Shown in pieces: positions 5,074 through 31,611 of a stretch of DNA of 64,000 bases. The notes beneath the pieces are model-generated. The model was not told the DNA's origin, did no database searches, and saw only the letters and a program-made list of their open reading frames with translations. Source of the stretch: PVC group bacterium (lineage in GTDB: Bacteria; Omnitrophota; Gorgyraeia; B26-G9); contig JAAEQR010000099.1 in NCBI GenBank assembly GCA_024231215.1, positions 50,401-114,400 on the forward strand, in the 5' to 3' direction. Position numbers and translations under genes: made by a program. Position 1 is the stretch's first letter; each line of letters begins with the position of its first letter.

Positions 5074-5637
5074 TCATTCTGAGGGGAGCGTTCCGGGGAT
5101 AATAATGCTAAGTACGCCATCGATCACTAATTTTGCCTGATTTTTATCGCTGAAATTTACCACCATTCTATCGAGTTTTATCAGTTGTTTACTGTCCCTT
5201 ATTTGAAGTTGTAATTTCAATAGTTCTTCAAAGGTCAATTCCATCTGTACATCAGCCATATACTTCGCATACATATCTCTTGTCTCAGGATTTTCGTGTA
5301 CAGCCAGCTTGGTTATCGAACCGCCGGATAAGCGAATAATATTTTCTGTCTCATGCAGCAAAATAGTTTTTATATCTTTCTCCTCCGCCTTCCCCAGTTT
5401 CAAGAAAGGCTTACATTGTTCATAGTCCGCGTATAGCTGGTCTTTGACAGCATGAATCGCCAAATATTCCTGGAGCCGCACCTCTGCGATTTTTATTTGA
5501 TCCTTCAAGATTTTTGACTGCTGACGCAGGCTTACAATAAAAACCCTTTCAAAAACAAACATTGCCAGAAGTATCGCGCAAATTCCGATAATAATTTTTT
5601 TGTTTTTTAACATCTGTATGCTTTTATTCTTAGCCAT
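5074..5637 (-). CDS. pilO: PilO-like type IV pilus alignment protein: N-terminal TM, coiled coil, periplasmic domain
   Basis: Bitopic topology and size typical of PilO. It immediately follows the pilMN fusion with a 5-nt gap. Confidence 0.55.
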   Translation of the reverse strand: MAKNKSIQMLKNKKIIIGICAILLAMFVFERVFIVSLRQQSKILKDQIKIAEVRLQEYLAIHAVKDQLYADYEQCKPFLKLGKAEEKDIKTILLHETENIIRLSGGSITKLAVHENPETRDMYAKYMADVQMELTFEELLKLQLQIRDSKQLIKLDRMVVNFSDKNQAKLVIDGVLSIIIPGTLPSE

Positions 5638-5642
5638 TATTT

Positions 5643-7052
5643 TTAAAGCTCCGCCAGAAATTTCACTTCAAAATTCACCAATTCCAGTCCTTTTATTTTT
5701 CGCTTACGAGTGTTCCGAGTCTCTACCTCTTTAAACTGTTTTGATTCTTCTAGTTTTGTAGTTAGACCAAATATGTCAGACAGCTGCTGCGCTGTACCTT
5801 TTAAAACCACGTTATTATCTGCATCAATGCTTAAGTTCGTTATCACCACCGATTCGCTCACTGCTTTTTGAAGTTGGAACAATACAAATAGGGGGATTTG
5901 GCGTTCTGCCAACAATTCCTTTGTTGTTTTTATTTTTTTTCTCTGATGCACAACTTCACCCAGTTGCTTTTCAATCACCGAAGCCTGTTCGTTTAGTCTT
6001 GCTAAATATGCCCGATTTTGTTGTTGGCGCCCTAAAAAGATAAAAAAGATAACCCCTAAAATATAAATCGATCCCAAACCAATAGTCATCAACTCTTTCA
6101 TCCTCCGACGAAGATCCTTGCGAATCTGTATCTCCGGCAAGGTAAAACTAAACTGCCTCTGTATATTATCAAAAAACAATGCCGCTACCCCGCTCACTGA
6201 AGCATCTTTGGGAATTGTTCTCTTTTTTGCCCGAAGGCATTTGTCCATTCCTGGGATTTTTACGCTTTGCACTGGGAATTCCAATTCTTGCTCAATACTT
6301 GGCGCCAATATTTCAGCAAAGGCTCCGCTTAAAAAAACCTGTGACGGCTTTGCACTCTGTTCTTCACTATTGAAAATTATTAAGGCCTGCCGAATATCAC
6401 CCATCAATCGATTTCTTCCTGTTTTTTCTTCTAATTGAATATTTTTAAAAGAAATGCTTCGCGAAAAAACTAACCGACCGCCTTTTAAAATAATAAGATC
6501 TGTAAAAAAAGTATCTACATCTAAAATTAAATAGACCTCTTCTTTGCTTATCTTCATTTTTGAGGTTTTTAATATAAGGTGATACAGCCCTTCGGAGCTA
6601 AACATTATGCTGTCTACAGGAAAGCCTGTCTTTTCGATAATCCGCATCTGCTTACGCATGATTTCTTTAGTAACAATCGCCACTAATATTCGCGAATACC
6701 CTCTTTCATCTTGTCCACATATCTGATAGCTGTAAAACATTTCTTCTTTTTTATACGGAACAATCCGGTTAATATGCAGCTCTACCATCTTGATCAATTC
6801 TTTTTTATCTTTGGACGGCAAGGACAAGTTTCTCACGGTAACAAAGTTACGAGGTAAAGACAAAGCTACTGAGGTAGGTTTATATTTGTTTTTCTTAAAA
6901 ACATCTATGATCGTATCTGTAATAGCCGCGTCATCAAGCCCGGCAATCCGTTTTACAATACAATCTGTAAATTTTGGCTGCGCGCCCATTTGATCCGCGG
7001 TTATTATTTTTAAATATTGCTCTCCGATTTCAATTCCGGCAAATAATTTCAT
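5643..7052 (-). CDS. pilMN: PilM-PilN fusion: actin-like PilM ATPase-fold domain, then a TM helix and a PilN periplasmic domain
   Basis: N-terminal LFAGIEIGEQYLKIIT matches the PilM start. A TM helix MTIGLGSIYILGVIFFIFLG follows, then a PilN-like coiled coil and C-terminal domain. Confidence 0.75.
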   Translation of the reverse strand: MKLFAGIEIGEQYLKIITADQMGAQPKFTDCIVKRIAGLDDAAITDTIIDVFKKNKYKPTSVALSLPRNFVTVRNLSLPSKDKKELIKMVELHINRIVPYKKEEMFYSYQICGQDERGYSRILVAIVTKEIMRKQMRIIEKTGFPVDSIMFSSEGLYHLILKTSKMKISKEEVYLILDVDTFFTDLIILKGGRLVFSRSISFKNIQLEEKTGRNRLMGDIRQALIIFNSEEQSAKPSQVFLSGAFAEILAPSIEQELEFPVQSVKIPGMDKCLRAKKRTIPKDASVSGVAALFFDNIQRQFSFTLPEIQIRKDLRRRMKELMTIGLGSIYILGVIFFIFLGRQQQNRAYLARLNEQASVIEKQLGEVVHQRKKIKTTKELLAERQIPLFVLFQLQKAVSESVVITNLSIDADNNVVLKGTAQQLSDIFGLTTKLEESKQFKEVETRNTRKRKIKGLELVNFEVKFLAEL

Positions 7053-7077
7053 AGCATTTAAATATCTTCGGTTGTTA

Positions 7078-8463
7078 TTATGCTGGCAAACTACCGATCA
7101 TATAAAACTTTTCTTCACTAATATGATCCACTCTGCCGCTTAAAATTTTCTGGCATCCGGATAATGTATCCTCCAAAGAAACATAATGTCCCTTTTTCCC
7201 TGTATAGCTTTCCACAACAAAAAACGGCTGGGTCAAAAAATTCTGCAGTTTCCTTGCCCGGTCAAAAATAACCTGTTCTTCATGTGTAAGCTCAGACTTC
7301 CCGATAATCGATACAATTCTCTGCAACTCGTCATAGCGCTGAAAATAACGCAATACTTCCTGGCTTATGCTATAATGTGCAGCCCCGATAATGTCCGACG
7401 AAATAAACGCGGAGCTTGATTCCAGCGGATGAATTGCCGGATACAAACCATGTTGTACGTATTCCCGGGACAATACCATAATCGAATCTAAATGGCTGAA
7501 TATGGTTACTACCGCAGGATCTGTTAAATCATCTGCCGGGACATAAACCGCTTCCACGCTGGTAATACTACCGTCTTCTGTAGAAGCAATGCGTTCATGA
7601 AATTCGCCAATTTCACTGGTTAATGTCGGCTGATATCCTGTCTCCGACGGAATCCTTCCCAGCAAGGCAGACACCTCGCTTCCTGCCTGCGCGAAACGAA
7701 ACACATTATCCACAAAAAATAATACATCCTGGCCATCTTCCCTCAACGATTCGGCAATAGTAACCGACGTTCTGGCGCTCTCAAATCTCGCTCCCGGAGA
7801 TTCATTCATTTGCCCGAAGACAAGAATAGAATTCTTTAATAGATCACGTTCTAAAAATTCATAATACAATTCATTCCCTTCCCTGATCCGTTCGCCAATC
7901 CCGCTAAATACACAAGTACCTTTTTGTTTATGAATAATATTATGGATAAGCTCTAAAATAATTATTGATTTGCCGCAAGCCGCGCCACCCAGAATGCCTG
8001 TTTTAGATCCTTTAACAAAAGGAAATAACAAATCAATAACTTTAACGCCTGTTTCTAGAATTTCATGCGTTAGCTTTTCACCTTTTTTTGTTTTTACATC
8101 TCTACGCATTTTAGACCTGTGTGTTGATAAAAATTTGTCAGCTTTCACCGGCCCTTTTTTGTCTATGGGCTTACCCATAACATTCAATAATCTACCATAT
8201 AAATATTTCGCTTCAGGAACCGTTAAACCCTTTCGAGTCCTTTCCACTGAAGTATTGCGACGCAGTCCATATGTAAAAGACAGCGCAATACATCGGCAGA
8301 TATTGTCCAGCTTATGTTCTATAACCTCTAAAACCACTTCTTCGTCACGATAATTTTTTGCCATAACGATTTCATGAATTCCCGCGATTGCTTTTTTGCT
8401 CGGGAATTGGACATCTACAACCGGTCCATATACAGCAACGATTTTACCAATATCTTCCCTCAT
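7078..8463 (-). CDS. atpD: F-type ATPase beta subunit, divergent P-loop
   Basis: Strong beta-subunit identity blocks: [30 protein letters not shown] and [13 protein letters not shown]. Walker A is GGAACGKS instead of GGAGVGKT. The DELSEED region reads SELTHEE. There is an N-terminal insertion. Confidence 0.85.
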
Positions 8464-9318
8464 TTATTTCTTCACCTTAATCCGCGCAGCAAATAATTCG
8501 CGAATTCGTTTATCTGCCAACGCATGTACACTTTTAAAATATTCTCTAGCTAACTTTCTATTAATTCGAGTTAGCTCCTGATAGCTTGCTTCTAAATGCA
8601 TAAGCCTGGCAGCCAATTCTGCCAGTTTACTAGAATATAGTATCTGACCCAAGCTAGATTCTAAATACAAACCTATCAATCCTTCGATAATACTTTGATC
8701 AGACGGCTCTGTAATTATTGCTTCCTTTGTTTTCTTCCTAACTTTCCCCTCTAATTCCGACATGGGAAAAGGCAGCAGCTGCCGCGTTTTTATTTCGCGC
8801 GCAGTAACTGAAATAAATTCAGCATACACAATAATCGCTTTATTAATTTTCCCGTCTAAATAATCACGAATTAAAAACTTTTTTAGTTTTCGCGCTTCAC
8901 TCAAAAAAGTCTTTTCTTTGACCCCCGGCAAGAACCTAAAAGACTCTTTTTTACCGCGAAAATAATGAGACCCCTTATCTCCTAAAACAATATAAGAATC
9001 TTCCGGGGTTTTTTTCTGACGTAAAGCAGCACTGATCAAAAGCATATTTAAGTCCCCTAAAAACCCTTCGTCAGAGGTAATTACCACAATGGTCTGAGGA
9101 GTCTCCTGTTCCCGCAACAGCAAAGGATGTATAGTGATCTTTTCCTGGCCCAGTTTAGAAAGAACTGAATATATTTCCCGGGGAAATCTTTCTTCTCCCC
9201 ACTGCTGCCGCTGAAACTGCCGCAACTGGATAGATGTCGCAATCTTCAGAATATTAATTATCTGATCTAAGCTTTCATTAAAGCTTAAACTATATTTAAG
9301 TTGGGAAAGTGACTTCAT
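8464..9318 (-). CDS. atpG: F-type ATPase gamma subunit
   Basis: 284 aa with N- and C-terminal helices. Sits between the alpha and beta genes as in atpAGD operons. Confidence 0.7.
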   Translation of the reverse strand: MKSLSQLKYSLSFNESLDQIINILKIATSIQLRQFQRQQWGEERFPREIYSVLSKLGQEKITIHPLLLREQETPQTIVVITSDEGFLGDLNMLLISAALRQKKTPEDSYIVLGDKGSHYFRGKKESFRFLPGVKEKTFLSEARKLKKFLIRDYLDGKINKAIIVYAEFISVTAREIKTRQLLPFPMSELEGKVRKKTKEAIITEPSDQSIIEGLIGLYLESSLGQILYSSKLAELAARLMHLEASYQELTRINRKLAREYFKSVHALADKRIRELFAARIKVKK

Positions 9319-9339
9319 GTAAAATCAATCCCTGTTTCT

Positions 9340-10815
9340 CTAGGTTTTTGCTTTTTTCTTCTTAAAATACTCTATAAGTGCTACATCTAATTGTGTTTTT
9401 ACTATATCGGTCAAGGTTTTTTCATTTTCAATTGCAGTTACTAGATCCGGGTATTTCTTGCACAGAAATGGAAGTATCTCCTGTTTAAACTTGTTCCAAA
9501 GTTCAGGAGGAAGAACCTCCAAAATCTTCTTTTTAAACGCGTAAAAAAGAGCTACTTCCGCAGTTAACGCCAATGGATTATAATTCTCCTGAACAAACAA
9601 TTCTTCTAATACCTTGCCCCGGCGAATAATAGCCTGCGCTTCTTTAGAAAGTCCGGTACGCAAACGCATTAAACGCAGCATTTCCCGGTATTGTAGATAG
9701 TCCAAACGGATTCCTTCGCTTAATTCCCGCAACGCCGGACATTGGACTTTAGAGCCAAGACGTGATACAGAAAGGCCAATATCAATTGCCGGCTTAAACC
9801 CTTCCCGGAATAAATTATTATTTAAAAATATCTGTCCGTCGGTGATTGATACCAGGTTAGAGGGAATAAACCCGGTAATATCTCCCTGCAAAGTTTCTAC
9901 GATAGGCAAAAAACTCATAGTTCCACCGCCTAATTCCGCTTTTAATTTTGCGGCTCTTTCCAGTAACTGGGAATGAATAAAAAAGATATCTCCGGGATAT
10001 GCTTCTCTCCCGGGAGAACGTTCAAGCAATAAAGATATCTGCCGATATGCCCAGGCATGTTTGGTTAAATCATCAAAGACAACAACAACATCCCGGCCCT
10101 GATGCATAAAATATTCACCAATTGCCGCGGCAGTATAAGGAGCAATATACTGCTCTGCCGGAGAACTTGAGGCAGAAGAACAAACCCCAACAACGGTAGG
10201 CATTATATCGGTTTGCACTAGCTGATGAATAATCTTTTCAAATGTGGATTGAGACCCTCCGATAAAACAATAAATGCAAACCACATCTTTATCTCGTTGA
10301 TTAATCATCGTATCCATGGCAATACTCGTGCGTCCTGTCTGCCTGTCTCCGACGATTAATTCTCTTTGCCCTTTACCAATTGGAATAGTTAAATCAATAA
10401 TTTTTATTCCGGTTGATAATTGTTCAGATATGGGATCGCGCTCCATAATTCCCGGAGCTTGCCGAAAAACCGGATAACGATCTACCTCGGGAATAGAACC
10501 TTTATCGTCTACCGGCTGAGCCAGACAATCAACTACTCTACCCAAGAGTTTATTTGACACCGGAACCGCAAGTAATTCACTCGCGCTTTTTAAATAATCA
10601 CCGATTTTGATATCCGGCTCATCAGATAAAACAATAATAAATACTTCATTCGGATCAAACCCGATAACCACGCCCTTGGTCCCATCATTAAATTCTACCA
10701 GCTGCCCATAAAGACACGACGGCAATCCGTCTGCCTTAACAATCCCCTGGGTTATTTCTTTAATGCGGCCAACTTCCCTGATTTCTACCTGCGGTATTTG
10801 TATTTGCTTTTGCAT
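9340..10815 (-). CDS. atpA: F-type ATPase alpha subunit with Lys-to-Arg change in the P-loop
   Basis: GDRQTGRTSIAMDTMINQ versus the canonical GDRQTGKTA.A.D.I.NQ. Remaining alpha-subunit blocks are conserved. Confidence 0.85.
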   Translation of the reverse strand: MQKQIQIPQVEIREVGRIKEITQGIVKADGLPSCLYGQLVEFNDGTKGVVIGFDPNEVFIIVLSDEPDIKIGDYLKSASELLAVPVSNKLLGRVVDCLAQPVDDKGSIPEVDRYPVFRQAPGIMERDPISEQLSTGIKIIDLTIPIGKGQRELIVGDRQTGRTSIAMDTMINQRDKDVVCIYCFIGGSQSTFEKIIHQLVQTDIMPTVVGVCSSASSSPAEQYIAPYTAAAIGEYFMHQGRDVVVVFDDLTKHAWAYRQISLLLERSPGREAYPGDIFFIHSQLLERAAKLKAELGGGTMSFLPIVETLQGDITGFIPSNLVSITDGQIFLNNNLFREGFKPAIDIGLSVSRLGSKVQCPALRELSEGIRLDYLQYREMLRLMRLRTGLSKEAQAIIRRGKVLEELFVQENYNPLALTAEVALFYAFKKKILEVLPPELWNKFKQEILPFLCKKYPDLVTAIENEKTLTDIVKTQLDVALIEYFKKKKAKT

Positions 10816-10830: not shown

Positions 10831-11568
10831 TCAAAAAGTCAGGTTTTGTTTATCTTGACCCAGTTGCTGCACTGCCTTGCTGAATTTATTATGCAAACTG
10901 CCGTCAATAATAAATGAGCCAATCTCTATAATTAATCCGCCAATCATAGCTTCATCGATTACTTGTTCTATGGCTATTTTTTGACCTAGTTTTTCACTAA
11001 GCATTGTATTTAAACAATCTTTTTGTTGTTCTGTCAACGCGCGAATAGTAATTGCCTTTGCCTGCTCTATTTCAATCGGAAAACGTTCCTTGTCAATGCC
11101 CTTTATTATCTCAATAACTTCATCTATAAGAGAATGGTGCAATGTGTCTTGAGCATGAGAACTGAAGGTAAGACGCACAATCTCCAACGCATAACGCAAC
11201 GCCTGATGATCAAATTTTAGAAATAACTTATTTTTCAGTTTATCTACACGTTCTTTGCTTTCATTTATAATTTTATCTGCTTCTATCTGTCCTTTATCTT
11301 CTTGATTTTTCTGCAATATTTTGCCTATATTTACAGCTTCATCCGTAACGCGCTTTGCCTCCTGCTTAGCTTTTTCCACCCTCGCTGTGGCCTCTTCCTC
11401 TGCCTTAACCAATCCGGTCTTTAATTTCTCTTCAATGATCTCATTTTCTCTTTGCAATGATTGTAATCGCCGCAATGCAGTATTAACACTGCGCGCGTAA
11501 AAAAATCGCAAAGCAATCAGTATTGCAATAAATGTAACTATTTGAATTATAATTAATTGTGTGCCCAT
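10831..11568 (-). CDS. atpFH: F-type ATPase b subunit fused to a truncated delta (OSCP) C-terminal domain
   Basis: TM helix, long charged coiled coil, then an OSCP-like C-terminal motif GGLIIEIGSFIIDGSLHNKF. Start taken at MGTQ (11568), which abuts the c-subunit stop; the ORF-track start at 11631 is probably over-extended. Confidence 0.6.
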   Translation of the reverse strand: MGTQLIIIQIVTFIAILIALRFFYARSVNTALRRLQSLQRENEIIEEKLKTGLVKAEEEATARVEKAKQEAKRVTDEAVNIGKILQKNQEDKGQIEADKIINESKERVDKLKNKLFLKFDHQALRYALEIVRLTFSSHAQDTLHHSLIDEVIEIIKGIDKERFPIEIEQAKAITIRALTEQQKDCLNTMLSEKLGQKIAIEQVIDEAMIGGLIIEIGSFIIDGSLHNKFSKAVQQLGQDKQNLTF

Positions 11569-11569
11569 A

Positions 11570-11779
11570 TTATTTAAACAAGTTATACACCACAAGTAAC
11601 GCAAGTACTGCGATCGCTTCCGCGAATACAAACGCTGTGATCATAATTACAAAAATCTTAGGCGCCGCGCCTGGATTACGTCCTACTGCACGCACTGCAT
11701 TACGCCCAACCATTCCAATCACAAGTGCCGGGCCCATTGTACTTAAAAGCATAATTAAAGTTACGGTAAAATTCTGCAT
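11570..11779 (-). CDS. atpE: F-type ATPase c subunit (proteolipid)
   Basis: 69 aa two-helix hairpin. Polar loop GRNPGA. Conserved ion-binding Glu in helix 2 (FAEAIAVLAL). Confidence 0.8.
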   Translation of the reverse strand: MQNFTVTLIMLLSTMGPALVIGMVGRNAVRAVGRNPGAAPKIFVIMITAFVFAEAIAVLALLVVYNLFK

Positions 11780-11833: not shown

Positions 11834-12061
11834 TCATCGTTCCACTAAAATCGTAAGCCGGTTATTTTCCATGCTCGCAACACCATCTGTCACGGAAAAA
11901 GAATCAGAGTCATTTATGGTAATAATGCCATTTTTTAGACGAGACAGGAAATTCTCATGCATGTCCAGTACGCAGAGCTCGCCCTCAACTGTGGGCAATA
12001 CTACCCTTACGGCCGATTTTTCATAAAGAATTTCTTTTGTATCTAAAATAGAAACATCCAT
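11834..12061 (-). CDS. atpC: F-type ATPase epsilon subunit, beta-sandwich domain only (75 aa)
   Basis: N-terminal beta-sandwich similarity (LPTVEGELCVLDMHENFLSRLKNGIITI). The usual C-terminal helical inhibitory hairpin is absent. The gene sits first in the operon rather than last. Confidence 0.6.
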   Translation of the reverse strand: MDVSILDTKEILYEKSAVRVVLPTVEGELCVLDMHENFLSRLKNGIITINDSDSFSVTDGVASMENNRLTILVER

Positions 12062-12093: not shown

Positions 12094-12122
12094 ATTATAA
12101 TCTCCCTGAGGATATTATTCAA
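12094..12122 (-). promoter_or_regulatory. Near-consensus sigma70 promoter (TTGAAT-17-TATAAT) driving the atp-pilMNO operon
   Basis: On the minus strand: TTGAAT (12122-12117), 17-nt spacer, TATAAT (12099-12094). Lies about 33 nt upstream of the epsilon start codon. Confidence 0.45.
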
Positions 12123-12290: not shown

Positions 12291-13106
12291 TTATTCCCCC
12301 TTATTCATGATATCTTCAATATCTTCAGCATTAATCTGCTGTTCTTCCTCTGCGGTATACTGTTCCGGAGCTAATTCTTCTTCTTTCGCCGCAGCATCTT
12401 CCTTAACTGAAGACTTCATCATCTGTGCCTGTCTTTGCCAGATAATATAAAGTGTCGTTGCCAATACCCCGAGAAACCCAACCACTGAAAAGAACACCTT
12501 CCAGATCGTAATTGCCGGCAAACGCTTCCCTTCGGTAAGAAAACTACGCGCTAATATCAAATCATTTTTCGCGGCTTCTAATAAATCAAGGTTTTCCCGG
12601 TAATTTGAAATATGCTGCTGGGGGTTTGCCGCGGAGAGGTTCTGTCTCTTAATGATCTTGTCTAGCTTTACTTCAATACTTTGTTTTAAAAACTGGGCGC
12701 GTTCCTCAAACTCAGTATTTTTAATAAAACTTATTGTCTTATTTATTTCTTTTCTTAAATTTTCGATCTCCGCCTCTGAAACCAGCCAGATATTTTTGAT
12801 TGTAACTTCGCGTTCAATTGTTTCTCCGGGAGCCAATTCGTATTCTCCAAAAACCTTATACGCCCCCTGCTGAGTATCATAAGTCAGGTTAAAATCACCT
12901 CTATCAATGATATCTTCCGGAGTAACTTCTTTCGGTAAATGCGCCTGTAATGTCATGCTCTGCGTATTTGTCTTCGACGGGTTAACCCCAAGAAGTTTTA
13001 GCGTAATTTTTGTTTGAACCGCATATACTGTAGCCGCAAAACAAAAAACACTAAGACACAACATCCCCCAAAACAACAGCTTCTTAAATCCATTTAATAC
13101 ATTCAT
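12291..13106 (-). CDS. Bitopic membrane protein of unknown function
   Basis: Signal-anchor N-terminus, periplasmic region of about 200 aa, a second TM helix, and an acidic cytoplasmic tail. Lies 17 nt downstream of the giant gene on the same strand. Confidence 0.6.
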   Translation of the reverse strand: MNVLNGFKKLLFWGMLCLSVFCFAATVYAVQTKITLKLLGVNPSKTNTQSMTLQAHLPKEVTPEDIIDRGDFNLTYDTQQGAYKVFGEYELAPGETIEREVTIKNIWLVSEAEIENLRKEINKTISFIKNTEFEERAQFLKQSIEVKLDKIIKRQNLSAANPQQHISNYRENLDLLEAAKNDLILARSFLTEGKRLPAITIWKVFFSVVGFLGVLATTLYIIWQRQAQMMKSSVKEDAAAKEEELAPEQYTAEEEQQINAEDIEDIMNKGE

Positions 13107-13122: not shown

Positions 13123-16100
13123 TTAAAACTCATACCAAACCTGACTCATCGGCTTATCACTGATATTCTCAATCATCTGATTGTTCAGCTCAAGCATTGC
13201 TTTCATTTCCTGCGTCTTATTTTTTAGATATTTTATATCTTTTTTCTTTTCTGCCGCCACTTCCAAGCGATTTTCTATTCCCACACTTTCCAGCTTTCCA
13301 AATTCTTTTATCTGAGAACCCATATCTGAAAGCTGTTTATAAATTATATTCAACTCTTTAGACATACCCGATCCCTGTTTTGCTTCGTTGAGAAAATCCT
13401 TGGCTATTCTGGTAAAAGATGTTTCAATCAATCCAACCTGATTATTCAAGATATCCACTATCCCGCCAATATCACTTAATCCAGAAGTCGCGCCTAAAAT
13501 TGCCGAGGTCTGGCCAGCGATATCGTCTACTGTATTACGAACAACTGTGATTGTCAAAGAATCAAGCGTACCCCGGGTTTCTTCCGAACATATGATCGTG
13601 TAATCACCAATCCCCCATGCCGAGTAAAACTTGACCGGATATTCATAGATACCCGTAGTCCCCATTTCCACCATGCTTCCCTTAATGATGCGCTGTACGT
13701 TCTTTACATCATACACATCTATTTTTGGAGACATCCCGGAATAAGTCTGATATCTTACATTTATCTCGTCCCCGCTTTTTGCCTGTTTTTCTCTGTTTAA
13801 AATCTTTGATTTCATGGTTGTCTGCAACTCATCTTCTGCCGCGGCTAAAGAACCTTCTAAACTTTCACGCGTAGCCGATAGTTCTTCTGTTAATGCTGTG
13901 GTTGTTTCTTCCATGGTCTCTGTAAGATTATCCGTTGCTTCTTCCAAGGTGCCTTCTAAGGAGTCCCGGGTATCTTCCAGTTCTGTGATCATCGATTCTG
14001 TTCCTTCTCCCACAGACTCCTCGATCTGCGCAACAGACGCGGCCAGTTGCGTCGCAGTTTGCGTAAAGAACTCGTATTGCAATATCTCTGAACCCACATC
14101 AATATTCGCACTAGATGTATAGTCTCTGCCTCGATAAAGCACTGTCAGTGTGGCCGGGTATACATACCCTGCTTCAAATCCCGTGCCAGGCAATGTAAGT
14201 GTATACATACCGTTCTCATTCGGAGCATTTGCTGAGACATTATTACGCACAGTTGTTCCATCCGGAGTATAAATACTCAACACTGCCGGCCCCATATCCG
14301 CACGTTCTAAGGCATTTGTTCCTACCAGTTTTCCTTTTCTCTGCAAAGAACCAACCGCACTTAAAGTATCACTTCCCGGGCTAAAACTGTATGTCAAAAT
14401 CGCTTCCCAGGTAACCTGCGCGGATGCTGAGTTTTCCAAATATATATTTACAATATAAGTGTCTGTCCCGGATTTCGGAACAACCCAGGTAACACTATTA
14501 TCGATAAAATTTGTCTTCGAGAGAAACGTTGTATACGTAGCATACGGATATGATGCTGAACGAGTAATAGCTGAATTAAGTCCGGAGTCATTCCATCCCG
14601 TACCCGGCTCATTTACATTCACATCCTGCAAATGCTGTAATGTATCATAATCCAAAATATTAAAAACAACCGAAGCATATACAATATTAAAAACCGCGTC
14701 ATTAACATCAAATACCGTAGAATCATCCGGATCTGAAACCCGAACCATAGCCTCAGTTGTCTGTGCATCCGGTAATATCCAAACATATGATCCAATATTA
14801 TCTACATTCGCCGCGATTAGATTCCAATTCAAACCATTATCCGTACTATAATCTAGTTTTATTTTTGCGATCGTTCCTCGAGTCTGCCACATGACTGTAT
14901 GATCTGATTTAGCAACCCAATCTTCATCACCATTCGGAACATTAATCGTAAACCCACCTCTTATCCGGAAAAATCCGGCCGATTGATTTGTTATCTCACT
15001 CCGATTACCGTCCGTAATACGCAGCTTCAACGTCGGACCGGTAAGAGCATCATCCGGAATATCCCAGGTATAAAGCCCGTCATTTGCTTCTCCCACGGCA
15101 ATTATCCTTCTTGTCGCAAAACCATCCCCGGACATATCAATAACCAGATTATCCGAAATAGATAAACCTTCCCAGGTCCAGGTTATTGTGGTCATATCTC
15201 CTAACACAAATTCTTCTCCGCCATCCGGAGCAGTAACATCAAATGTCGGGATCGGAATAATTCTAAAAAACTCGTCCGAGACATCTGTACTTACCGGACG
15301 ATTCCCGTCTGTGAGTTTAAATAAAGCATTATTAGTTACGTCATCCGGAACATCCCATGTATATTCCCCGTCATTCAACTCTCCTGATCCAATTACAAAA
15401 TAAGTAGAACCTCCATCAGGAGAATATTCTGCAACCAGATTATCGCTTATTGATCCCTCAGTAGTCCAAGTCGCCGGAGCCTGGTCTGCTACGGCCCAGA
15501 CTTCTCCTCCGTTGGGTGCAGTTATTGTAATTAACGGATCTGCTATAGCAAACACATCATCTGAAACATCTTCGTTCGAAGGCCTATCCGCATCAAAAAC
15601 CTTTACCAAACAAATGGCACTTACATCATCTGGAATTGTCCATGAATACGCGCCCATATTTGCCGCACCGGTTGTAATGTCCTGATATACAGTTCCTCCG
15701 TCAGATGAATATTGAACAGTTAAGTTATTGGATATCAACCCGCCGTTATCTTCCCATGTAACATCTTGTATGGTTCCTACTCGCCAAATCTCGCTACCGT
15801 TCGGCGTAAGAATAGTAAGCTGCGGTATTGGTAAAACTGTAAACATTCCGTCTGACCTGTCCCAAACTACCGGCCTGGTATTATCTGTTATTCTTACACG
15901 CATACTTGCGGAGACATCATTTGGAATCGTCCAATTATGGCTTCCGCTATTGGTTGTCGATCCAATTATTGTATTAACGTCTGAAATAAAATTATCTTTT
16001 GAATATTCAATAAGCAAGTCATTGCCCACGCTTCCGGTATTATCCCAGGTGATTATTTCTGCATCTGATACAGTCCAAAGTTCGCCGCCATTTGGCACCG

Positions 16101-19100
16101 TCACTCTAATCACCGGATACGCAATCGCAAACGGAACATCCGACATATCAGATATAGCCGGGGTGTCATTATCTGTAACTCTTATTTTTGCGGTAATTGA
16201 ATAATCATCCACCACAATCCAATCATATGTACCATCATTAGTTTCAAAGTTCGCAATTAAATTAATATCACTGCCAAAATTGTCTTTAGAATATTCAATG
16301 CGCAAGTTATCACTTACGCTTCCTAAAGAACCCCAGGTGATTTCCTGAGCCGTACCAATCGCCCAGCTTTCACCGCCATTAGGCGCAATAATATTTACAT
16401 ACGGCAGTCTAATCGCAAAAACAGAATCAGATTGATCTGTAGTCGCAATTCGTGTCGCGTCAAATATTCTGACCAAGCAATTGGTTGATAAGTCATTCGG
16501 TATTGTCCAAACATAATCTCCGTCATTTGCTTCTGCGCTGGACACAGTATTCCACGCTCCGCCTCCGTCAGAAGAATACTCTATAGTTAAGTCATCGCGA
16601 ATCGCTTCATCTGTATTGCCTTCGGATGTCCAATTAATTCCATGCGTGGTTCCTACAATCCATTCTTCTGCACCATTCGGGGAAGTTACTGTAATTGTCG
16701 GCGCAACAATACTAAACACAGCATCCGACATATCCCAAACTGTAGCCCTGGCATTATCTGTAAGTCTTACCAATACCTGGTCGGAAAGATCATCTGCCAC
16801 ATCCCAGGTGTATGTCTGATCATTTGGCTCTCCTGTTGCAATCGTATTCCAAGCCACCCCGCCGTTGCTGGAATATTCCAGCAACAGATCATTTGTAACC
16901 GCACCCAAGAATGTCCAGGTAATTTCGTAATCGCCTGTTGCATACCATGTCTCTGCCCCATTAGGAGAAGTGATTGTTACCGCAGGAATTGTGATTTGGA
17001 AAACATCGTTTGAAACATCAACAACCAATGCGTCATTCTCATCCATGACCCGAATAAGCGCTTCTATTGTTTCTACATCTGCTACTGTCCACGTATATAA
17101 ACCATCATTAGTTTGCTGGTTGCTAATTAGATTCCACGATCCGCCATTATCATCCGAGTAATAAATCGCCATCTCATAATAATCAGCGCCGCCGGATTCT
17201 AATTTTTGGCCATAAGATTCCCAGGTGATATCATACTCTTCCCCAATGGCCAATACTTCTCCGCCGTTTGGATCAAGCATCGTGACTATTGGATAAGGAA
17301 TAACCGTAAATGCTTCAGATATCCCTGTAACCTGAGTCCATGCATTATCCGTAATTTGTACCTGTACTATATTTGAATCTATGGCGTCCGGAATCGTCCA
17401 TGCATATATACCATCACAAGCTTCATTATCCGCGATAGTATTAAAAATTAATCCATCTGTTGTATATTCAAACAGTAAATCATCTGTTACCGTTCCAAAA
17501 ATCGTCCAAGTAATATCATGGATATCTGCAGACACCCATGTCAATCCGGATACCGGGGATGTAATCGTAATATAAGGAAAAACAATCGAGAAATCAGCAT
17601 CTGACATATCCCAGATAATGCTCTGGGTATCTCTGCCGCCAAGAATCGAATCTTCTCTTATTCTTACTTTCACAGTTGTAGAAATATCTTCCGGCACTGT
17701 CCAGTCATATGTCCCGCTAATCGTATCATTTGCATCCGAACCACTAGGAGTTCCTATACTTGTCGTAATAATCGCAGTTTCCGTACTAAAATTATCTGTT
17801 GAATAATCAATAATCACATTATTCACAAACTGCGTAGAATTGGTTGCCCAATTGACTTCATATTGATTACCAACAATCCATTGTTCCGCACCATTCGGTG
17901 CCCCAACGATTAATATTGGCTGTGGTACAATGGCCCAAACCGCGTCTGATTCATCTACCACATCGGTATTATCCGCATCGTAGATTTTCAACAATACTTC
18001 ATCTGATGGATCATTTGCTATTGTCCAGTTAAAATTCCCTGTATTTGGACGCTGGGTAGAAGCAGCTATCCAGGTTGATCCATTGTCCGGAGAATATTCT
18101 ATGGTCAGATTATCATTTACTGTTCCAGTTGAAGCCCAGGTAATCGTATGCTGTCTGCCTGCTTCCCAGATGTCTCCTCCGTTCGGAGAAGTAATGATCA
18201 AGCCCATGATTTGGAAAATAGCATCCGATTCATCGCTAACATTTGGAAATTCTACCGAGCTCACCCGGACCAAAGCATTAGGCGATGCGCTATCCGGCAC
18301 TGTCCAGCCATGACTACCGTCATTAGCTGTCGAAGCAATCACTTCATTCCAACTGCTTCCGGTATCCGCAGAGTATTCTATTTGTACATTTGAAGCTGCT
18401 CCATCAACGCCCTCTGATGTCCAGGTAATAGTATGGGACGATGCAACCGCCCATTGTTCTGCTCCATCAGGAGAGCTAACATTGATTTCCGCTCGGATAT
18501 AATCAATGTCTATACTATCTATCACCGGGGTGCTCTCCCCGTATGAATATAAGGTTGTTTTATACTGAAGATATCGATCATCCAAACAATCTTCATTTAA
18601 GGTATTGATTGCTTCTGCGCCAGCAGAGTCAAAATAATAACTCGGCGGACTCGCTAAGGTAATTGTTACTTCATCCAATTCCGGGGTATTTATTCCGTCA
18701 TCAGTATGTAAATACGCGCGGTAATAAAAATCTCCATCCGGAAATTGTGATTGAAAATTAGTTAAGTTTGCATTAATCTCTGCCGCGGTATTAGTATTCG
18801 CATAACCAAAATCAACCTTTGCCCAACTACTTCCATTATGCCAATACCAATTATATCCGTCCGCGGAAACTTGATAGCCTACTTCTGTCCCTGCGGGTTC
18901 AGTCACAACATCCTGGAAATTAACCAGATTCCCTTCGTAAAAAACACCGATTATCGGCTGAATTACAGGGTTATCATCATAGTAATTAGTAAGGCTGTGC
19001 GTGTTGGCCGGGTGTACATACGTATCTTCAGCGTCCTGAGCCATCCCGACAGTATTATTTTCTAAAATTGCCCATTCATCCGTATGGGCCTGCTCACCGC

Positions 19101-22100
19101 TATCGTGGTGCACTATATGCGGCTTTAAATTGCTCTCCGAAGAATATGAAGATTCATAAAGCAATGTCCATGTGCTAGAATCGACAATGCGATAGTAATA
19201 GTCTGCTCCCATGCTCTTTAACACAATGCGAATTTCATACCATGTACCCGGAGAATAACTACCCACACCTTGCCTATAGCTACCATCTTCATAAATATGA
19301 AAATTCCCGTTATCAAAATATATCGCATGCGGCATATCCTGATAACTTGCACCTCCAGCATTACTTTTCCAGCCGATCATTGTCCGAGAACCAGAATCAG
19401 CTTTTATTTTCGCGCAAAACTCTATGTTTGATCTAGCATAGAAATTATTAGTATTAAGATAACAATCCCAGTCATCACTGTTATTCTGTAATGTAACATA
19501 TTCATTCTGCGTTACTGTTCCTCCTCCATACATAAACGTTGATCCCGCTATTGTTGTGCCATGGAAATTGTGAACAAACACAGCGATTATGCCTTTGGCG
19601 CTCGCGCTTAGATCACTTGCTCCGGAAGCCCCAGGATTTCCATAATACAAATATATCGTTTTATCAGCTAGGGCGGAAAAAGAAGGTATTTTTGTGTAAA
19701 CCATAGCTTTTTTTGAGACAAAATCAAAGCTGTCAAGATAGTAATTTAATACTGTAGTATCGTCCGAATCTACAATCCTAATATCTCCTCCGTCATTTTT
19801 TACATTACTCCAAAACTCATGCCAGTTGTCCAGCTTTAACTCTACCAGCTGATTAGTTATATCTGCCGTTGTAAAATTGGTTACTGTAATCGGAATTTTA
19901 TACGCCCACGCTGCTAACCCTGGACATGTGCCAGCTTCTTCCTCCATAGAAAAATATGTTTTTATATACTTATTTAGAGTTAATGGCATACGTTCTGTAG
20001 CAGATACATACTGTATACAGCTTCCATATCTTGGCCCATATTTTTCCACATAAGCCTCTCCCGCGTTAAGCCCCTTGCGGCCAATCATAAGATATTTAGA
20101 ACGATAGGCTAGCCCGCTCAACAGCGCATCGCTTGCCCCAAAATTCTTAAGCTCATTTTTCAAAGAGGTGTTATTATATATATTATTTCTCGGTTCATCA
20201 TAAGTGGTAACAATAATTAATGTATCATCGGGCAATCCCGCTAAATACGCTTCCATTGCGTCTGCTTGCGCGCTATCATTGTGACAATCATATTGCATTG
20301 ATTCCACCCAATTTAGATCAGCATCCAATCGGGTAACTGCCCAGCTTATAGTTGTTGTATGCCTTAAGGTTCCATCAACATATACATAATGATCTCTTGG
20401 CCCATCATCGCTTCCAGCTGACGAAATATTAAGATCCCCCACATTAATAATAGTATCGTTGCTATCCGATGCCGCACTAGCTGAGCCATATAATAAGTGG
20501 ATAGTTTTTATCTCATCTATTGCAATTGTTGGAATTTCAACAAAAATAACCGCAGTTTTTTCTGCATAATTAAACAACTCCAAACAATACTCTAAAGTTT
20601 GCGTACCATCATGAAATCTAATATCATCTCCGTCAGTCTGGACATTAGCCCAGAATTGAAGGTTTGAAAAAGGTATCTCTACTTTGACCAAAACATCTGT
20701 TCCCGCTTCTCCACCTGTATTATCTAAAACAATTTTATTAGCATAAGAAAAATCCGGCAACCCGGCAAATAAATCTCCATCTTCAAACTCCACGCCACCC
20801 TTAGAAGGATATTCCGCAGCACTGTTGCCGTAATACAAATAGATAGTTTCTGAAGATTCCGCGGCAATAAACGGAATTTTTGCGCACACTTCCGCCTCTG
20901 TATTAGCATAATCAAATGTTTTCAAAAATGATTCTAAAACTGTGCTATCGTCAGAATCAACTACACGCACATCTTCCCCATCAATTTTTACGTTCTTCCA
21001 AAACTCATGCCAGTTATCTATCTTTATATTAATAATTTCATCGGTTAAATCAGTTAGCCCGGAATTTGTTATTGTAATAGGTAACCTGTACTGCCAGCCT
21101 GAAAGAGCAGGGGAGCTGGCTAGTTCTTGTGCAACTGAAAAACAAGCAAAAGCCCCTCCTCCTAAAACAATATTATCTACCCCAAAACTCTCATCATAAT
21201 CCCCTCCGGAACTTAAGTTAGACGTGAATCTAAGCGTTAAATCTCCACCTGGGTGATCAAATGTAACTTTATATGCCCTGCCAAGATAATCACTTCCTGA
21301 GCGTGTAGTTATATTACCTATATTTTGAGCTGCGGTAAACTGATACGTATTCCACACCAAGCCACCATTCGCATAAAGATAGCCTCGTTCACCGTCCCAG
21401 GAATCCATCCAATAATAATCAAAAGTCACCTCATAACTACCCGCCGGGGCATTGCTTTTCGTATACATTGTATACTGCCCCTCTCCGCCATACTTTCCCA
21501 TCATTCCATGCCCGCCAGATGTATATGTCTCCGGATCAGAACTGCCCACATTATCTGTCCACCCAGTATAATTAGGATAAGACCATCTATTGGCAATCGT
21601 TGAATCACTCTCTGAAATTGCCGAAACAGAACCATAAAGCACGTAAATTGTTTGTATGGAATCCGCTGAGAGCAACGGTATTTTAACATCGATGCTTATA
21701 CTTTTGCTGGCATAATCAAATGTACTTAAGTAATACGATAATTTTATACTCCCATCATAAAATCTGATGTCACTACCCTCTGATCGTACATTGTCCCAAA
21801 AATGAGTATTTGAAGGGAATATCTTAAGTGATACCAATTCATCTGTTTTCTCCACACCGCCCGTATTATCAATAATTACCGCTTGCGCATGTTTAAAGTC
21901 TGCTAACTCCAACTGAATTTTTGCGGTTCCGGCACTTACTTCTATTTTGCTGGAATAGGCATAATCTGCCTGCATAGAATAATCATTACCTAAAACCTGA
22001 GCATCCGCAATCCCCAGCCATTCTGTCCAGGAAATATTATCTGCCGAGGTTCTAAGCTGTAATCGAGCATCTGTACCTAGAGGAAGTGTCTCCTGCCAGG

Positions 22101-31609: not shown

Positions 31610-31611
31610 CA

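What the first reader, a model, noticed from the sequence alone, without database searches (positions are those of the whole stretch)
7078..10815. Both nucleotide-binding subunits carry substitutions in otherwise invariant P-loops: alpha GDRQTGRT and beta GGAACGKS
F1 beta subunits almost universally have GGAGVGKT, and alpha subunits GDRQTGKT. Here the beta subunit has Ala-Cys in place of Gly-Val and Ser in place of Thr. Its catalytic Lys is retained, giving a FliI/T3SS-ATPase-like GKS ending. The alpha subunit replaces the P-loop Lys with Arg, which is predicted to weaken binding at the non-catalytic site. The rest of both proteins is strongly F1-like, including [22 protein letters not shown]. 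This argues for a diverged, specialised paralog rather than sequencing noise.
Basis: partly seen in the sequence, partly recalled or inferred. Interest (0 to 1): 0.6.

Follow-up and report, generated by a model that had tools for sequence, protein, structure and literature searches.

The report
Pilus-linked F-type ATPase with variant P-loops
An Omnitrophota bacterium's rotary F-type ATPase genes lie inside a type IV pilus gene cluster, as already reported for this phylum, and their ATP-binding loops carry real, evolutionarily maintained but chemically conservative changes, so the enzyme is most likely active and the finding is a modest lineage-specific curiosity.

Summary
Beta (7078-8463, minus strand) reads GGAACGKS and alpha (9340-10815, minus strand) reads GDRQTGRT. 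It is not noise. The four genomes of the close subclade use four different Arg codons at the alpha position. Arg occurs in 7 of 7 closest alpha homologues, in 0 of 111 remoter family members, and in 1 of about 130 diverse alpha representatives.

The beta changes are ordinary polymorphism in this family (position 162 A/G, 163 L/C, 166 T/S). All catalytic residues are invariant.

The genes form an operon: epsilon (short), c, b fused to the C-terminal half of delta, alpha, gamma, beta. In Omnitrophota this operon lies next to type IV pilus genes in nearly every locus examined. Seymour et al. 2023 already described this linkage as a 'symbiotic' ATPase.

Alpha and beta pass NCBI's canonical atpA/atpD cut-offs. 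They fail the Mycoplasma type 2/3 and N-ATPase models. The c subunit keeps its ion-binding Glu in every locus where it was recovered. Subunit a is not in the window or in any fetched flank.

Most likely this is an active rotary H+-ATPase with a retuned non-catalytic site. Whether it is a second copy in the genome could not be tested.

The parts
11834..12061 (-). epsilon subunit, 75 aa, beta-sandwich domain only (no C-terminal helical domain)
   Evidence: Pfam PF02823, 59.3 bits. TIGR01216 scores 54.7, below its cut-off of 67.25, and matches profile positions 3-79 of 130. Orthologues are 72-97 aa in 17 loci.
12094..12122 (-). sigma-70-like promoter candidate (TTGAAT-17-TATAAT) in the 229-nt gap upstream of epsilon
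   Evidence: Matches 10 of 12 consensus positions and is the best hit on this strand in the region. A GGAGA motif lies ahead of the ATG. This is a consensus match only.
11570..11779 (-). c subunit, 69 aa, with the RNP loop and the TM2 carboxylate (FAEAIAV)
   Evidence: Pfam PF00137, 45.7 bits. Sequence. The Glu and the RNP loop are invariant in all 18 fetched loci where c was recovered and in L027.
10831..11568 (-). peripheral-stalk protein: one TM helix, a full b-like coiled coil, and only the C-terminal domain of delta (OSCP). The start is taken as ATG 11568.
   Evidence: NF009992 (subunit B) profile 6-155 of 159 matches residues 4-153. TIGR01145 (delta) profile 101-171 of 172 matches residues 166-235. 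All scores are below the equivalog cut-offs. Pfam OSCP profile 102-171 of 172. Start context.
9340..10815 (-). alpha subunit, 491 aa
   Evidence: Passes NF009884 (571.6 against 554) and TIGR00962 atpA (539.6 against 484.45). Scores 363-473 bits against solved F1 alphas. The Arg finger GLSVSR and the Walker B DD are invariant in the family. The N-terminus is about 13-20 residues shorter than canonical alphas.
10327..10350 (-). alpha Walker A, GDRQTGRT. Arg162 (10330-10332) replaces the Walker Lys of the non-catalytic site.
8464..9318 (-). gamma subunit, 284 aa, diverged
   Evidence: Pfam PF00231, 123.4 bits. TIGR01146 scores 92.9, below its cut-off of 194.45.
7078..8463 (-). beta subunit, 461 aa, catalytic
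   Evidence: Passes TIGR01039 atpD (562.5 against 462.85). Scores 409-483 bits against solved F1 betas. Catalytic residues are invariant in 120 homologues.
7966..7989 (-). beta Walker A, GGAACGKS (Lys165 and the Mg-ligand Ser166 retained)
5643..7052 (-). PilM-PilN fusion. It starts 25 nt after the beta stop codon.
   Evidence: Pfam PilM_2 and PilN. TIGR01175 pilM scores 65.5, below its cut-off. Junction sequence. Orthologues lie downstream of beta in nearly all loci.
5074..5637 (-). PilO-position protein, 187 aa, with no family match
   Evidence: Conserved directly after PilMN in 15 loci. No Pfam or NCBIfam family.
12291..13106 (-). 271-aa membrane-anchored protein of unknown family upstream of the operon
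   Evidence: No Pfam or NCBIfam hit. Homologues occupy the same position in L002 (62% identity) and L021 (27%).
13123..26421 (-). giant 4432-aa ORF (Kelch, DUF2341, Kre9_KNH Ig-like, ILEI domains), adhesin-like, upstream neighbour
   Evidence: A giant ORF sits in the same position in L002 and L021.
27589..27672 (-). c-di-GMP-I riboswitch aptamer upstream of the Y1-transposase-like ORF and the giant ORF
   Evidence: Rfam RF01051, 54.7 bits against a gathering score of 35.
29831..31624 (-). secretin (PilQ/GspD type), here displaced to upstream of the ATPase
   Evidence: Pfam Secretin, Secretin_N and STN. In relatives it lies about 10 kb downstream of beta.

Best explanation
This is a functional, Omnitrophota-specific F-type rotary ATPase: alpha3-beta3-gamma-epsilon on a c-ring, held by a stalk made of b fused to the C-terminal half of delta.

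Beta hydrolyses or makes ATP by the standard binding-change chemistry. Lys165 and Ser166 hold Mg-ATP. Glu191 activates water. Arg192, Arg256 and the alpha Arg finger (Arg352) stabilise the transition state. The gamma/epsilon rotor turns the c-ring, whose Glu54 carries H+.

The beta P-loop differences (Gly to Ala, Val to Cys, Thr to Ser) are tolerated side-chain variation.

Alpha Arg162 replaces the Walker Lys of the non-catalytic site. That site only has to bind ATP, not split it. A charge-conserving Lys-to-Arg change is therefore compatible with function. It probably retunes, rather than abolishes, regulatory ATP binding and escape from MgADP inhibition.

The whole family also has Gly where canonical alphas have the Gln that corresponds to bovine Gln208. 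It lacks the epsilon C-terminal inhibitory domain as well. Both fit an enzyme that mainly runs as an ATP-driven proton pump in fermentative cells.

The operon is co-located, and probably co-expressed, with a c-di-GMP-controlled type IV pilus system. Subunit a is assumed to be encoded elsewhere in the genome.

What is shown: gene content, motifs, conservation, synteny, and family thresholds. What is inferred: rotation, H+ coupling, direction of operation, the effect of Arg162, and the existence of a distant subunit a gene.
For: - Alpha and beta pass the curated canonical equivalog cut-offs: atpD 562.5 against 462.85, atpA 539.6 against 484.45, NF009884 571.6 against 554. Their best matches are solved F1 subunits.
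- Beta Lys165, Glu191, Arg192, Arg194, Asp252 and Arg256 are invariant in 120 homologues, while P-loop positions 162, 163 and 166 vary freely.
- The alpha Arg finger and Walker B are invariant in 118 homologues. Only four positions separate the Arg subclade from the rest: V75L, K162R, W184F and Y223F.
- Four different Arg codons in four genomes show selection for Arg.
- The c-subunit Glu and RNP loop are invariant in the 18 loci where c was recovered and in L027. That is expected only if ion binding matters.
- In a related cluster, L028, the ATPase lies next to the proton-translocating transhydrogenase genes pntAB.
- Alpha K175A/T176A abolishes non-catalytic nucleotide binding and worsens MgADP inhibition in Bacillus F1 (PMC4171097). 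This identifies the role of the residue.
- Split atp loci with subunit a encoded elsewhere are known in epsilon-proteobacteria (my own knowledge).
Against: - No subunit a gene is in the 64-kb window. No a-like polytopic protein is within the fetched flanks (up to 10 kb each side) of 27 related loci.
- Gamma, epsilon, c and the stalk protein all fall below the NCBIfam equivalog cut-offs.
- The N-terminal domain of delta and the alpha N-terminal helix that binds it are both missing. The stator attachment is therefore non-canonical.
- Synteny with pilus genes persists across the phylum and in L027, where PilB starts 3 nt after beta. It survives the rearrangement in this window, where PilMN starts 25 nt after beta. 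This suggests more than co-location.
- A published alpha phylogeny groups these alphas with Mycoplasma type 2/3 ATPases (PMC10066038).
- No biochemical data exist for alpha Lys-to-Arg in any F1.
Confidence: 0.6

Rival explanations
1. It is a non-chemiosmotic 'symbiotic' F1-like motor, as Seymour et al. 2023 proposed. ATP hydrolysis would drive a mechanical task of the adjacent type IV pilus or adhesion apparatus, such as attachment or surface motility on host cells. This would be analogous to the Mycoplasma type 2 gliding ATPase. The P-loop and stalk changes would reflect that new job.
For: - Operon-level linkage to PilB, PilC, PilMN, PilO, pilins and secretin in essentially every locus that reaches far enough.
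- A 3-nt gap between beta and PilB in L027.
- The linkage to PilMN-PilO is kept in this window even though PilB and PilC have left the locus.
- No subunit a nearby.
- A modified stalk: b plus the C-terminal half of delta, which resembles the architecture I recall for FliH.
- The published proposal and the figure of 57 of 66 contigs co-located (PMC10066038).
- V/A-type ATPase genes are reported in 70-99% of one Omnitrophota class (Gorgyraeia, excluding one small order), so another chemiosmotic enzyme may exist (bioRxiv 10.64898/2026.06.07.730766).
Against: - Alpha and beta fail the Mycoplasma models: MMOB1660 431 against 600, MMOB1670 430 against 850, MSC_0619 341 against 520, MSC_0618 393 against 570. 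They pass the canonical ones.
- Unlike the Mycoplasma clusters, a c subunit with an invariant ion-binding Glu and a membrane-anchored b are present.
- The pilus already has its own PilB ATPase in relatives.
- L028 shows the same ATPase type beside pntAB with no pilus genes in the fetched stretch.
Confidence: 0.25
2. The alpha non-catalytic site is degenerating and no longer binds nucleotide, as in the B subunits of bacterial V/A-ATPases. The family-wide Gln-to-Gly change and the subclade Lys-to-Arg change would be successive steps in that loss.
For: - Gly replaces the Gln208-equivalent residue in 117 of 118 family members. Lys-to-Arg is added in the subclade.
- IGQK dominates in other alphas (87 of 150).
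- V1 B subunits work without nucleotide (statement in PMC4171097).
Against: - The rest of the Walker A (GDRQTG.[TS]), the Walker B DD and the neighbouring residues are invariant or conservatively kept.
- Arg is held by selection rather than drifting to arbitrary residues.
- Only four fixed differences mark the subclade. That is not the pattern of a decaying site.
Confidence: 0.12
3. It is a sequencing or assembly error, or the genes are decaying pseudogenes.
For: None found. The source is a metagenome-assembled genome.
Against: - The ORFs are intact.
- Identical motifs occur in independent assemblies.
- Synonymous codon differences occur at the variant residues.
- Catalytic residues are invariant.
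Confidence: 0.01

Closest known systems
Omnitrophota 'symbiotic' F-type ATPase / type-4a pilus loci (Seymour et al. 2023, Nat Microbiol, PMC10066038)
   Same: The phylum is the same: the exact proteins are annotated as a 'PVC group bacterium' MAG, and the nearest relatives are Omnitrophota. The co-location of atp genes with pilus genes within 10 kb is the same. V. archaeovorus LiM, named in that paper, is locus L011 here.
   Different: In this window PilB, PilC and the pilins are absent. The secretin block sits upstream, and a giant ORF and a Y1-transposase-like gene are inserted. The text passages retrieved from the paper mention none of the following: the alpha Lys-to-Arg subclade, the c subunit with a conserved Glu, the b/delta-C fusion, or the short epsilon. 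I searched the paper by terms and did not read all of it. Its assignment to Mycoplasma 'type 2/3' is not borne out by the HMM thresholds.
Canonical bacterial F1Fo ATP synthase (atpIBEFHAGDC)
   Same: Alpha and beta pass the equivalog cut-offs. Gamma, epsilon, c and b-like proteins are present. All catalytic residues, the Arg finger and the c-ring carboxylate are present.
   Different: The gene order is epsilon-c-b/delta'-alpha-gamma-beta, with epsilon first. No subunit a is in the cluster. The N-terminal domain of delta and the alpha N-terminal helix are missing. Epsilon lacks its C-terminal domain. Alpha has Gly for the Gln208 equivalent and, in this subclade, Arg for the Walker Lys. The small subunits fall below the equivalog cut-offs.
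Mycoplasma type 2 (MMOB1660/1670 gliding motor) and type 3 (MSC_0618/0619) F1-like ATPases
   Same: Both are F1-derived alpha/beta pairs found in an unusual, possibly host-interaction-related gene context. A published alpha tree groups them together (PMC10066038).
   Different: All four NCBIfam models score below their cut-offs. Beta has no long N-terminal extension: the solved G1-ATPase beta is 784 aa and aligns from residue 300. Here c and b-like membrane subunits are present. To my knowledge the Mycoplasma clusters lack Fo genes.
N-ATPase (alternate F1Fo, atpDCQRBEFAG)
   Same: Both are a non-standard F-type operon without a stand-alone delta.
   Different: alt_F1F0 beta scores 488.7 against 752, alpha 506.9 against 750.5 and B 29.1 against 224.7, so all fail. 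There are no atpQ, atpR or a genes, and the order differs. The c subunit lacks the Na+-ligand pattern, judged by my own reading against the I. tartaricus motif.
FliI/SctN type III secretion ATPases with FliH
   Same: The Walker A ends in GKS. The stalk protein combines b-like and delta-like parts, as reported for FliH (my own knowledge). Both are ATPases associated with an envelope-spanning machine.
   Different: FliI/YscN models score 186-212 bits against cut-offs of 380-620, and PDB T3SS ATPases score about 119 bits. This is an alpha3-beta3 heterohexamer with gamma, epsilon and c, not a homohexamer.

Membership tests
F0F1 ATP synthase beta (atpD, TIGR01039) | Score at or above the curated equivalog cut-off | tested here: met
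   562.5 bits against a cut-off of 462.85
F0F1 ATP synthase beta (atpD, TIGR01039) | Catalytic residues present: Walker Lys, Ser/Thr Mg ligand, GER Glu, Arg, Walker B Asp, FRF Arg | tested here: met
   All are present in the window protein and invariant in 120 homologues
F0F1 ATP synthase alpha (atpA, TIGR00962 / NF009884) | Score at or above the curated equivalog cut-off | tested here: met
   539.6 against 484.45, and 571.6 against 554
F0F1 ATP synthase alpha (atpA, TIGR00962 / NF009884) | Walker A Lys of the non-catalytic site (GDRQTGKT) | tested here: not met
   Arg162 replaces it. Lys is found in 111 of 118 family members and in all but one of about 130 diverse representatives
Complete F1Fo holoenzyme | Subunit a (PF00119) encoded | tested here: inconclusive
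   Absent from the window and from all fetched flanks.
Complete F1Fo holoenzyme | c subunit with an ion-binding carboxylate and the R(N/Q)P loop | tested here: met
Complete F1Fo holoenzyme | Full delta/OSCP, including the N-terminal domain that binds the alpha N-termini | tested here: not met
   Only delta profile positions 101-171 of 172 are matched, and they are fused to b. The alpha N-terminus is shortened
Omnitrophota type-4a-pilus-linked 'symbiotic' F-type ATPase (Seymour et al. 2023) | F-type ATPase genes within 10 kb of type-4a pilus genes on an Omnitrophota contig | tested here: met
   PilMN starts 25 nt after beta and PilO follows. The secretin is 19 kb upstream. Taxonomy
Omnitrophota type-4a-pilus-linked 'symbiotic' F-type ATPase (Seymour et al. 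2023) | Alpha falls in the paper's 'symbiotic' clade of its alpha phylogeny | not tested
   No tree was built with their reference set. Orthology to the V. archaeovorus LiM cluster (L011, 53% alpha identity, same synteny) is shown
Mycoplasma type 2 gliding ATPase (MMOB1660/MMOB1670) | Score at or above the NCBIfam cut-offs | tested here: not met
   Alpha 431.1 against 600, beta 429.5 against 850
Mycoplasma type 3 F1-like ATPase (MSC_0618/MSC_0619) | Score at or above the NCBIfam cut-offs | tested here: not met
   Beta 392.8 against 570, alpha 340.7 against 520
N-ATPase (alternate F1Fo) | Score at or above the NCBIfam cut-offs for alt_F1F0 alpha, beta and B | tested here: not met
   506.9 against 750.5, 488.7 against 752, and 29.1 against 224.7
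FliI/SctN ATPase | Score at or above the TIGR01026 subfamily cut-off | tested here: not met
   Beta 211.5 and alpha 186.8, against a cut-off of 379.5

The most novel reading that the evidence does not exclude
The cluster encodes an F-type rotary engine that has no subunit a anywhere in the genome. Its c-ring and b/delta' stalk would be mechanically or energetically plugged into the type IV pilus platform (PilMN/PilO). That would make it a pilus-associated rotary ATPase, evolving in parallel to the recruitment of an F1-like ATPase by type III secretion. The altered non-catalytic alpha site (Gln to Gly, then Lys to Arg) and the loss of the epsilon and delta regulatory domains would mark a hydrolysis-only motor.
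Probability: 0.1. Interest if true: 0.85.

Novelty: new member of a known kind. Interest (0 to 1): 0.38.

Why it matters
The Walker A lysine of F1 alpha is almost never replaced in nature. A clade that has kept arginine there under selection is a natural experiment on what the non-catalytic sites of rotary ATPases are for: regulatory ATP binding and escape from MgADP inhibition.

The context matters more than the substitution. In Omnitrophota, a phylum of ultra-small, probably host-dependent bacteria, an F-type ATPase operon is welded to a c-di-GMP-controlled type IV pilus locus. This work adds several points to the published description:
- Alpha and beta are canonical by curated thresholds and are not Mycoplasma type 2/3-like.
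- A c subunit with a strictly conserved ion-binding Glu is part of the operon.
- The stalk is b fused to half of delta.
- Subunit a is never nearby.

These facts sharpen the choice between 'ordinary proton pump co-regulated with pili' and 'new pilus-coupled motor'. They make that choice testable by one genome-wide search for subunit a and one cryo-ET experiment.

Tried and rejected
- Assembly error: rejected by orthologue conservation and codon evidence.
- Decay of the cluster in the complete genome CP070797.1 (L001): alpha there looked truncated and fused to a PAS protein. The junction is a run of N, an assembly gap or masked stretch, so it is not evidence.
- Coupled co-evolution of the alpha and beta changes: rejected, because they occur separately.
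- A FliI relationship for beta: rejected by scores.
- Search for subunit a. The steps were Pfam scans of almost all window ORFs of 100 aa or more, clustering of all ORFs in 24 loci, and a screen for 4-or-more-TM proteins carrying the a-type Arg-Asn motif in all 29 loci. Only PilC, a prepilin peptidase and an M50-like peptidase turned up.
- Genome-wide answers from the literature. Kizina et al. 2022 is not held. The stored supplements of Seymour et al. are truncated. The 2026 preprint gives only alpha/beta/gamma and V/A-type frequencies.
- Look-ups of P0001 and P0009 contigs returned nothing.
- No phylogeny including Mycoplasma type 2/3 was built, because those sequences could not be imported. 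HMM cut-offs were used instead.
- The alpha Arg-to-Lys change at the E. coli R365-equivalent position (Lys341) is family-wide, but Lys is also seen in 15 of 115 other representatives, so it was not pursued.

Full report
**What is in the window.** On the minus strand, 7078-8463 encodes a 461-aa F1 beta, 8464-9318 a gamma, and 9340-10815 a 491-aa alpha. The beta Walker A (7966-7989) reads GGAACGKS and the alpha Walker A (10327-10350) reads GDRQTGRT.

Upstream on the same strand lie three more genes. The first is a 75-aa epsilon consisting only of the beta-sandwich domain (11834-12061). The third is a 245-aa stalk protein (10831-11568). A good sigma-70-like promoter match lies in the 229-nt gap before epsilon. 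The operon is therefore epsilon-c-b/delta'-alpha-gamma-beta.

Twenty-five nucleotides after the beta stop codon a PilM-PilN fusion begins (5643-7052), followed by a PilO-position protein. Upstream of the operon are, in order:
- a 271-aa membrane protein of unknown family;
- a 4432-aa Kelch/DUF2341 giant ORF;
- a Y1-transposase-like ORF preceded by a c-di-GMP-I riboswitch;
- two TPR proteins;
- a secretin.

The window also contains dnaA, dnaN, gyrB, gyrA, rnpA, yidC and parAB, so it is chromosomal and spans the origin region.

**Whose genome.** The exact alpha and beta proteins are on record from a 187,731-bp contig of a MAG labelled 'PVC group bacterium'. Essentially all close homologues are from Omnitrophota.

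- GGAACGKS is present in the five closest beta homologues (76-100% identity).
- It is also in three independent genome assemblies, L002/L003, L004 and L025, which carry alpha GDRQTGR[TS] as well.
- Among 118 full-length alpha homologues, Arg162 is in all 7 of the closest (66-100% identity) and in none of the other 111. It is one of only four positions that distinguish that subclade.
- The Arg codon is CGC, CGT, AGA and CGA in the four genomes for which DNA was fetched. The residue has therefore been maintained through repeated synonymous change.
- Beta Ser166 is TCN in the subclade but AGC in remoter relatives. Thr-to-Ser has therefore happened more than once.
- Across 150 diverse alpha representatives (50%-identity clusters of 1.84 billion proteins), the Walker Lys is replaced by Arg in only one other protein, P0291.

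The alpha substitution is therefore rare and selected. The beta substitutions are not rare within this family. In 120 homologues, position 162 is A62/G57, position 163 is L106/C12 and position 166 is T93/S27. Lys165, the catalytic Glu191, Arg192, Arg194, the Walker B Asp252 and Arg256 are invariant.

The two sets of changes are independent. Alpha-Arg occurs with beta GGAALGKT (L029).

**What family is it?** Against NCBIfam's curated cut-offs:

| Subunit | Model | Score | Cut-off | Result |
|---|---|---|---|---|
| beta | atpD (TIGR01039) | 562.5 | 462.85 | passes |
| alpha | atpA (TIGR00962) | 539.6 | 484.45 | passes |
| alpha | NF009884 | 571.6 | 554 | passes |
| alpha | N-ATPase alpha | 506.9 | 750.5 | fails |
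| beta | N-ATPase beta | 488.7 | 752 | fails |
| alpha | Mycoplasma type 2, MMOB1660 | 431.1 | 600 | fails |
| beta | Mycoplasma type 2, MMOB1670 | 429.5 | 850 | fails |
| alpha | Mycoplasma type 3, MSC_0619 | 340.7 | 520 | fails |
| beta | Mycoplasma type 3, MSC_0618 | 392.8 | 570 | fails |
| alpha / beta | FliI/SctN (TIGR01026) | 186.8 / 211.5 | 379.5 | fails |

Solved-structure searches agree. Canonical F1 betas score 409-483 bits, the M. mobile G1-ATPase beta 348 bits, and T3SS ATPases about 119 bits. The top 60 alpha matches are all canonical F1 alphas.

The smaller subunits are the diverged ones. Gamma, epsilon, c and the stalk protein all fall below their equivalog cut-offs. The stalk protein is a complete b (profile 6-155 of 159) fused to only the C-terminal domain of delta (profile 101-171 of 172). 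The delta N-terminal domain is absent. Alpha starts 13-20 residues later than canonical alphas, so it lacks the helix that domain binds in canonical enzymes (the binding role is my own knowledge).

The whole alpha family has C-[WFY]-I-G-G-[SP] where canonical alphas have V-A-I-G-Q-K. Gly therefore replaces the Gln that corresponds to the catalytic Glu of beta (bovine alpha Gln208, from my own knowledge). The alpha Arg finger (GLSVSR) and the Walker B DD are invariant.

The c subunit has the RNP loop and the TM2 Glu. Both are invariant in the 18 fetched loci where c was recovered and in L027. Epsilon is 72-97 aa everywhere and so never has the C-terminal inhibitory helices.

**Surroundings in relatives.** In 20-odd loci a gene order recurs. 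They include Ca. Velamenicoccus archaeovorus LiM (L011) and members only 55-61% identical in beta. The order is: response regulator (with GGDEF where Pfam annotation was available: L002, L029), epsilon, c, b/delta', alpha, gamma, beta, PilB with an MshEN domain, PilC, PilMN, PilO, pilins, an HHH protein, a conserved 273-aa protein with a P-loop motif (ExeA-like by my reading; not scanned), a small protein, and the secretin.

In L027, whose alpha is only 49% identical, PilB starts 3 nt after beta and a PilZ protein follows. The window is a rearranged version. PilB, PilC and the pilins are gone, and the secretin block lies upstream beyond a transposase-like gene and the giant ORF. The ATPase is still joined directly to PilMN-PilO.

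c-di-GMP elements recur throughout: a GGDEF regulator, MshEN, PilZ, and here a c-di-GMP-I riboswitch.

No subunit a, and no a-like polytopic protein with the Arg-Asn motif, was found in the window or in any locus.

Two related clusters show other contexts. L028 has two tandem alphas, then epsilon-c-b/delta'-gamma-beta, followed by the proton-translocating transhydrogenase genes pntAB. L026 has beta (GGAAAGKT)-epsilon-alpha (GDRQTGRT)-gamma with no membrane subunits between them. This is an apparently independent alpha Lys-to-Arg.

**What is already known.** Seymour et al. 2023 (PMC10066038) reported that many Omnitrophota, including V. archaeovorus, carry a 'non-respiratory' F-type ATPase adjacent to type-4a pilus clusters, within 10 kb in 57 of 66 contigs. 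They reported that its alpha groups with Mycoplasma type 2/3 ATPases, while its beta groups with Omnitrophota, Saccharimonadia and a Dependentiae relative. [quoted passage not shown]

A 2026 preprint on 176 complete genomes finds F1 alpha and beta in 125 of 176, gamma below KofamScan thresholds in most, and V/A-type ATPase genes common in one class. The pilus linkage is therefore known.

The passages I retrieved from those papers do not mention the alpha Arg subclade, the c subunit, the b/delta-C fusion or the missing subunit a. I searched the papers by terms and did not read them fully.

**How it most likely works.** All residues needed for binding-change catalysis are present in beta and invariant in the family. 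The Thr-to-Ser change keeps the Mg ligand, since Walker A is GxxxxGK[ST]. Gly-to-Ala and Val-to-Cys are side-chain changes at positions that vary freely among relatives. I therefore take beta to be fully active.

Alpha Arg162 sits at the Walker Lys of the non-catalytic site. In Bacillus F1, alpha K175A/T176A abolishes non-catalytic nucleotide binding and deepens MgADP inhibition (PMC4171097), so this residue matters for regulation. In P-loop NTPases generally, Lys-to-Arg tends to preserve binding while blocking hydrolysis (my own knowledge). At a site that never hydrolyses, this would be tolerated.

Selection for Arg specifically, with the rest of the site intact, suggests retuned rather than lost ATP binding. 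The invariant c-ring Glu argues that ion translocation is still the output. If so, a subunit a gene exists elsewhere, as in bacteria with split atp loci (my own knowledge). The short epsilon and the fermentative lifestyle reported for the phylum fit an enzyme that mainly pumps protons at the expense of ATP.

I put this reading at 0.6.

The main rival, at 0.25, is the published idea of a pilus- or adhesion-coupled motor. The operon-level linkage favours it, and so does the missing subunit a. Three things weigh against it: the conserved c-ring carboxylate, the canonical scores of alpha and beta, and the pntAB-linked relative.

A third reading is that the alpha site is on its way to losing nucleotide, as in V-type B subunits. 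That is possible but not the pattern seen (0.12). Error or pseudogene is excluded.

**Verdict.** Three claims fall short:
- 'Paralog' is unproven.
- 'FliI-like' is superficial.
- The beta changes are ordinary.

The cluster is a new, rearranged member of an already described kind. The alpha Walker Lys-to-Arg is a small new detail of modest interest. The open question worth pursuing is whether these pilus-linked enzymes have a subunit a at all.

Noticed in passing
window 27589-27672 (-): A c-di-GMP-I riboswitch (RF01051, 54.7 bits against a gathering score of 35) lies 124 nt upstream of a Y1/IS200-like ORF (26506-27465), which is followed by the 4432-aa giant ORF. This suggests c-di-GMP control of the giant adhesin-like gene and perhaps of the downstream locus.
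   Followed up: partly
window 13123-26421 (-): A giant 4432-aa ORF with Kelch propellers, four DUF2341 repeats, Kre9_KNH Ig-like and ILEI domains. A giant ORF occupies the same position upstream of the ATPase in L002 and L021.
   Followed up: partly
window 5074-7077 versus L002 11387-16689: PilB (T2SSE with MshEN), PilC and all pilin genes that separate or follow beta and PilMN in every relative are missing from this window. The secretin block is upstream instead, next to a transposase-like gene. The locus has been rearranged, yet ATPase-PilMN-PilO stayed contiguous.
   Followed up: partly
L026 2550-6115: An unrelated small contig (GCA_964508775.1) carries beta (GGAAAGKT)-epsilon-alpha (GDRQTGRT)-gamma with no c or b genes between them. 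This is a second, apparently independent alpha Walker Lys-to-Arg, in a cluster that so far shows only F1 genes.
   Followed up: partly
L028 147-10380: A related cluster has two tandem alpha genes, then epsilon-c-b/delta'-gamma-beta, followed immediately by pntA/pntB (proton-translocating transhydrogenase). No pilus genes are in the fetched stretch.
   Followed up: no
L027 43-12724: In a distant relative (alpha 49% identical) the ATPase and pilus genes form one tight operon. PilB starts 3 nt after beta, followed by a PilZ-domain protein, PilC and pseudopilins.
   Followed up: no
L001 about 8250-8350: The 'complete' genome CP070797.1 has a run of N inside the alpha gene, which makes alpha look truncated and fused to a PAS protein. 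This is an assembly gap or masked stretch, not biology.
   Followed up: yes
window 12291-13106 (-): A 271-aa protein with N- and C-terminal hydrophobic segments and an acidic tail has no family match. It is conserved between the giant ORF and the ATPase operon in L002 (62% identity) and L021 (27%).
   Followed up: no
window 1665-4981 and 36410-37213: A GH2-like glycosidase carrying a dockerin, a cohesin-domain protein with a PEP-CTERM anchor, and a second PEP-CTERM protein. Together these hint at a cohesin-dockerin surface assembly.
   Followed up: no
window 62069-64000: No ORF of 50 aa or more that lies wholly inside the window is listed here, and no Rfam family matches. Either a gene runs off the window end or the stretch is non-coding.
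   Followed up: no
proteins P0125 (832 aa) and P0201 (822 aa): Two alpha homologues are about 330 aa longer than normal. P0125 has a canonical-type N-terminus and a Lys P-loop but scores very high against the window alpha. They may be fusions or duplicated alphas.
   Followed up: no
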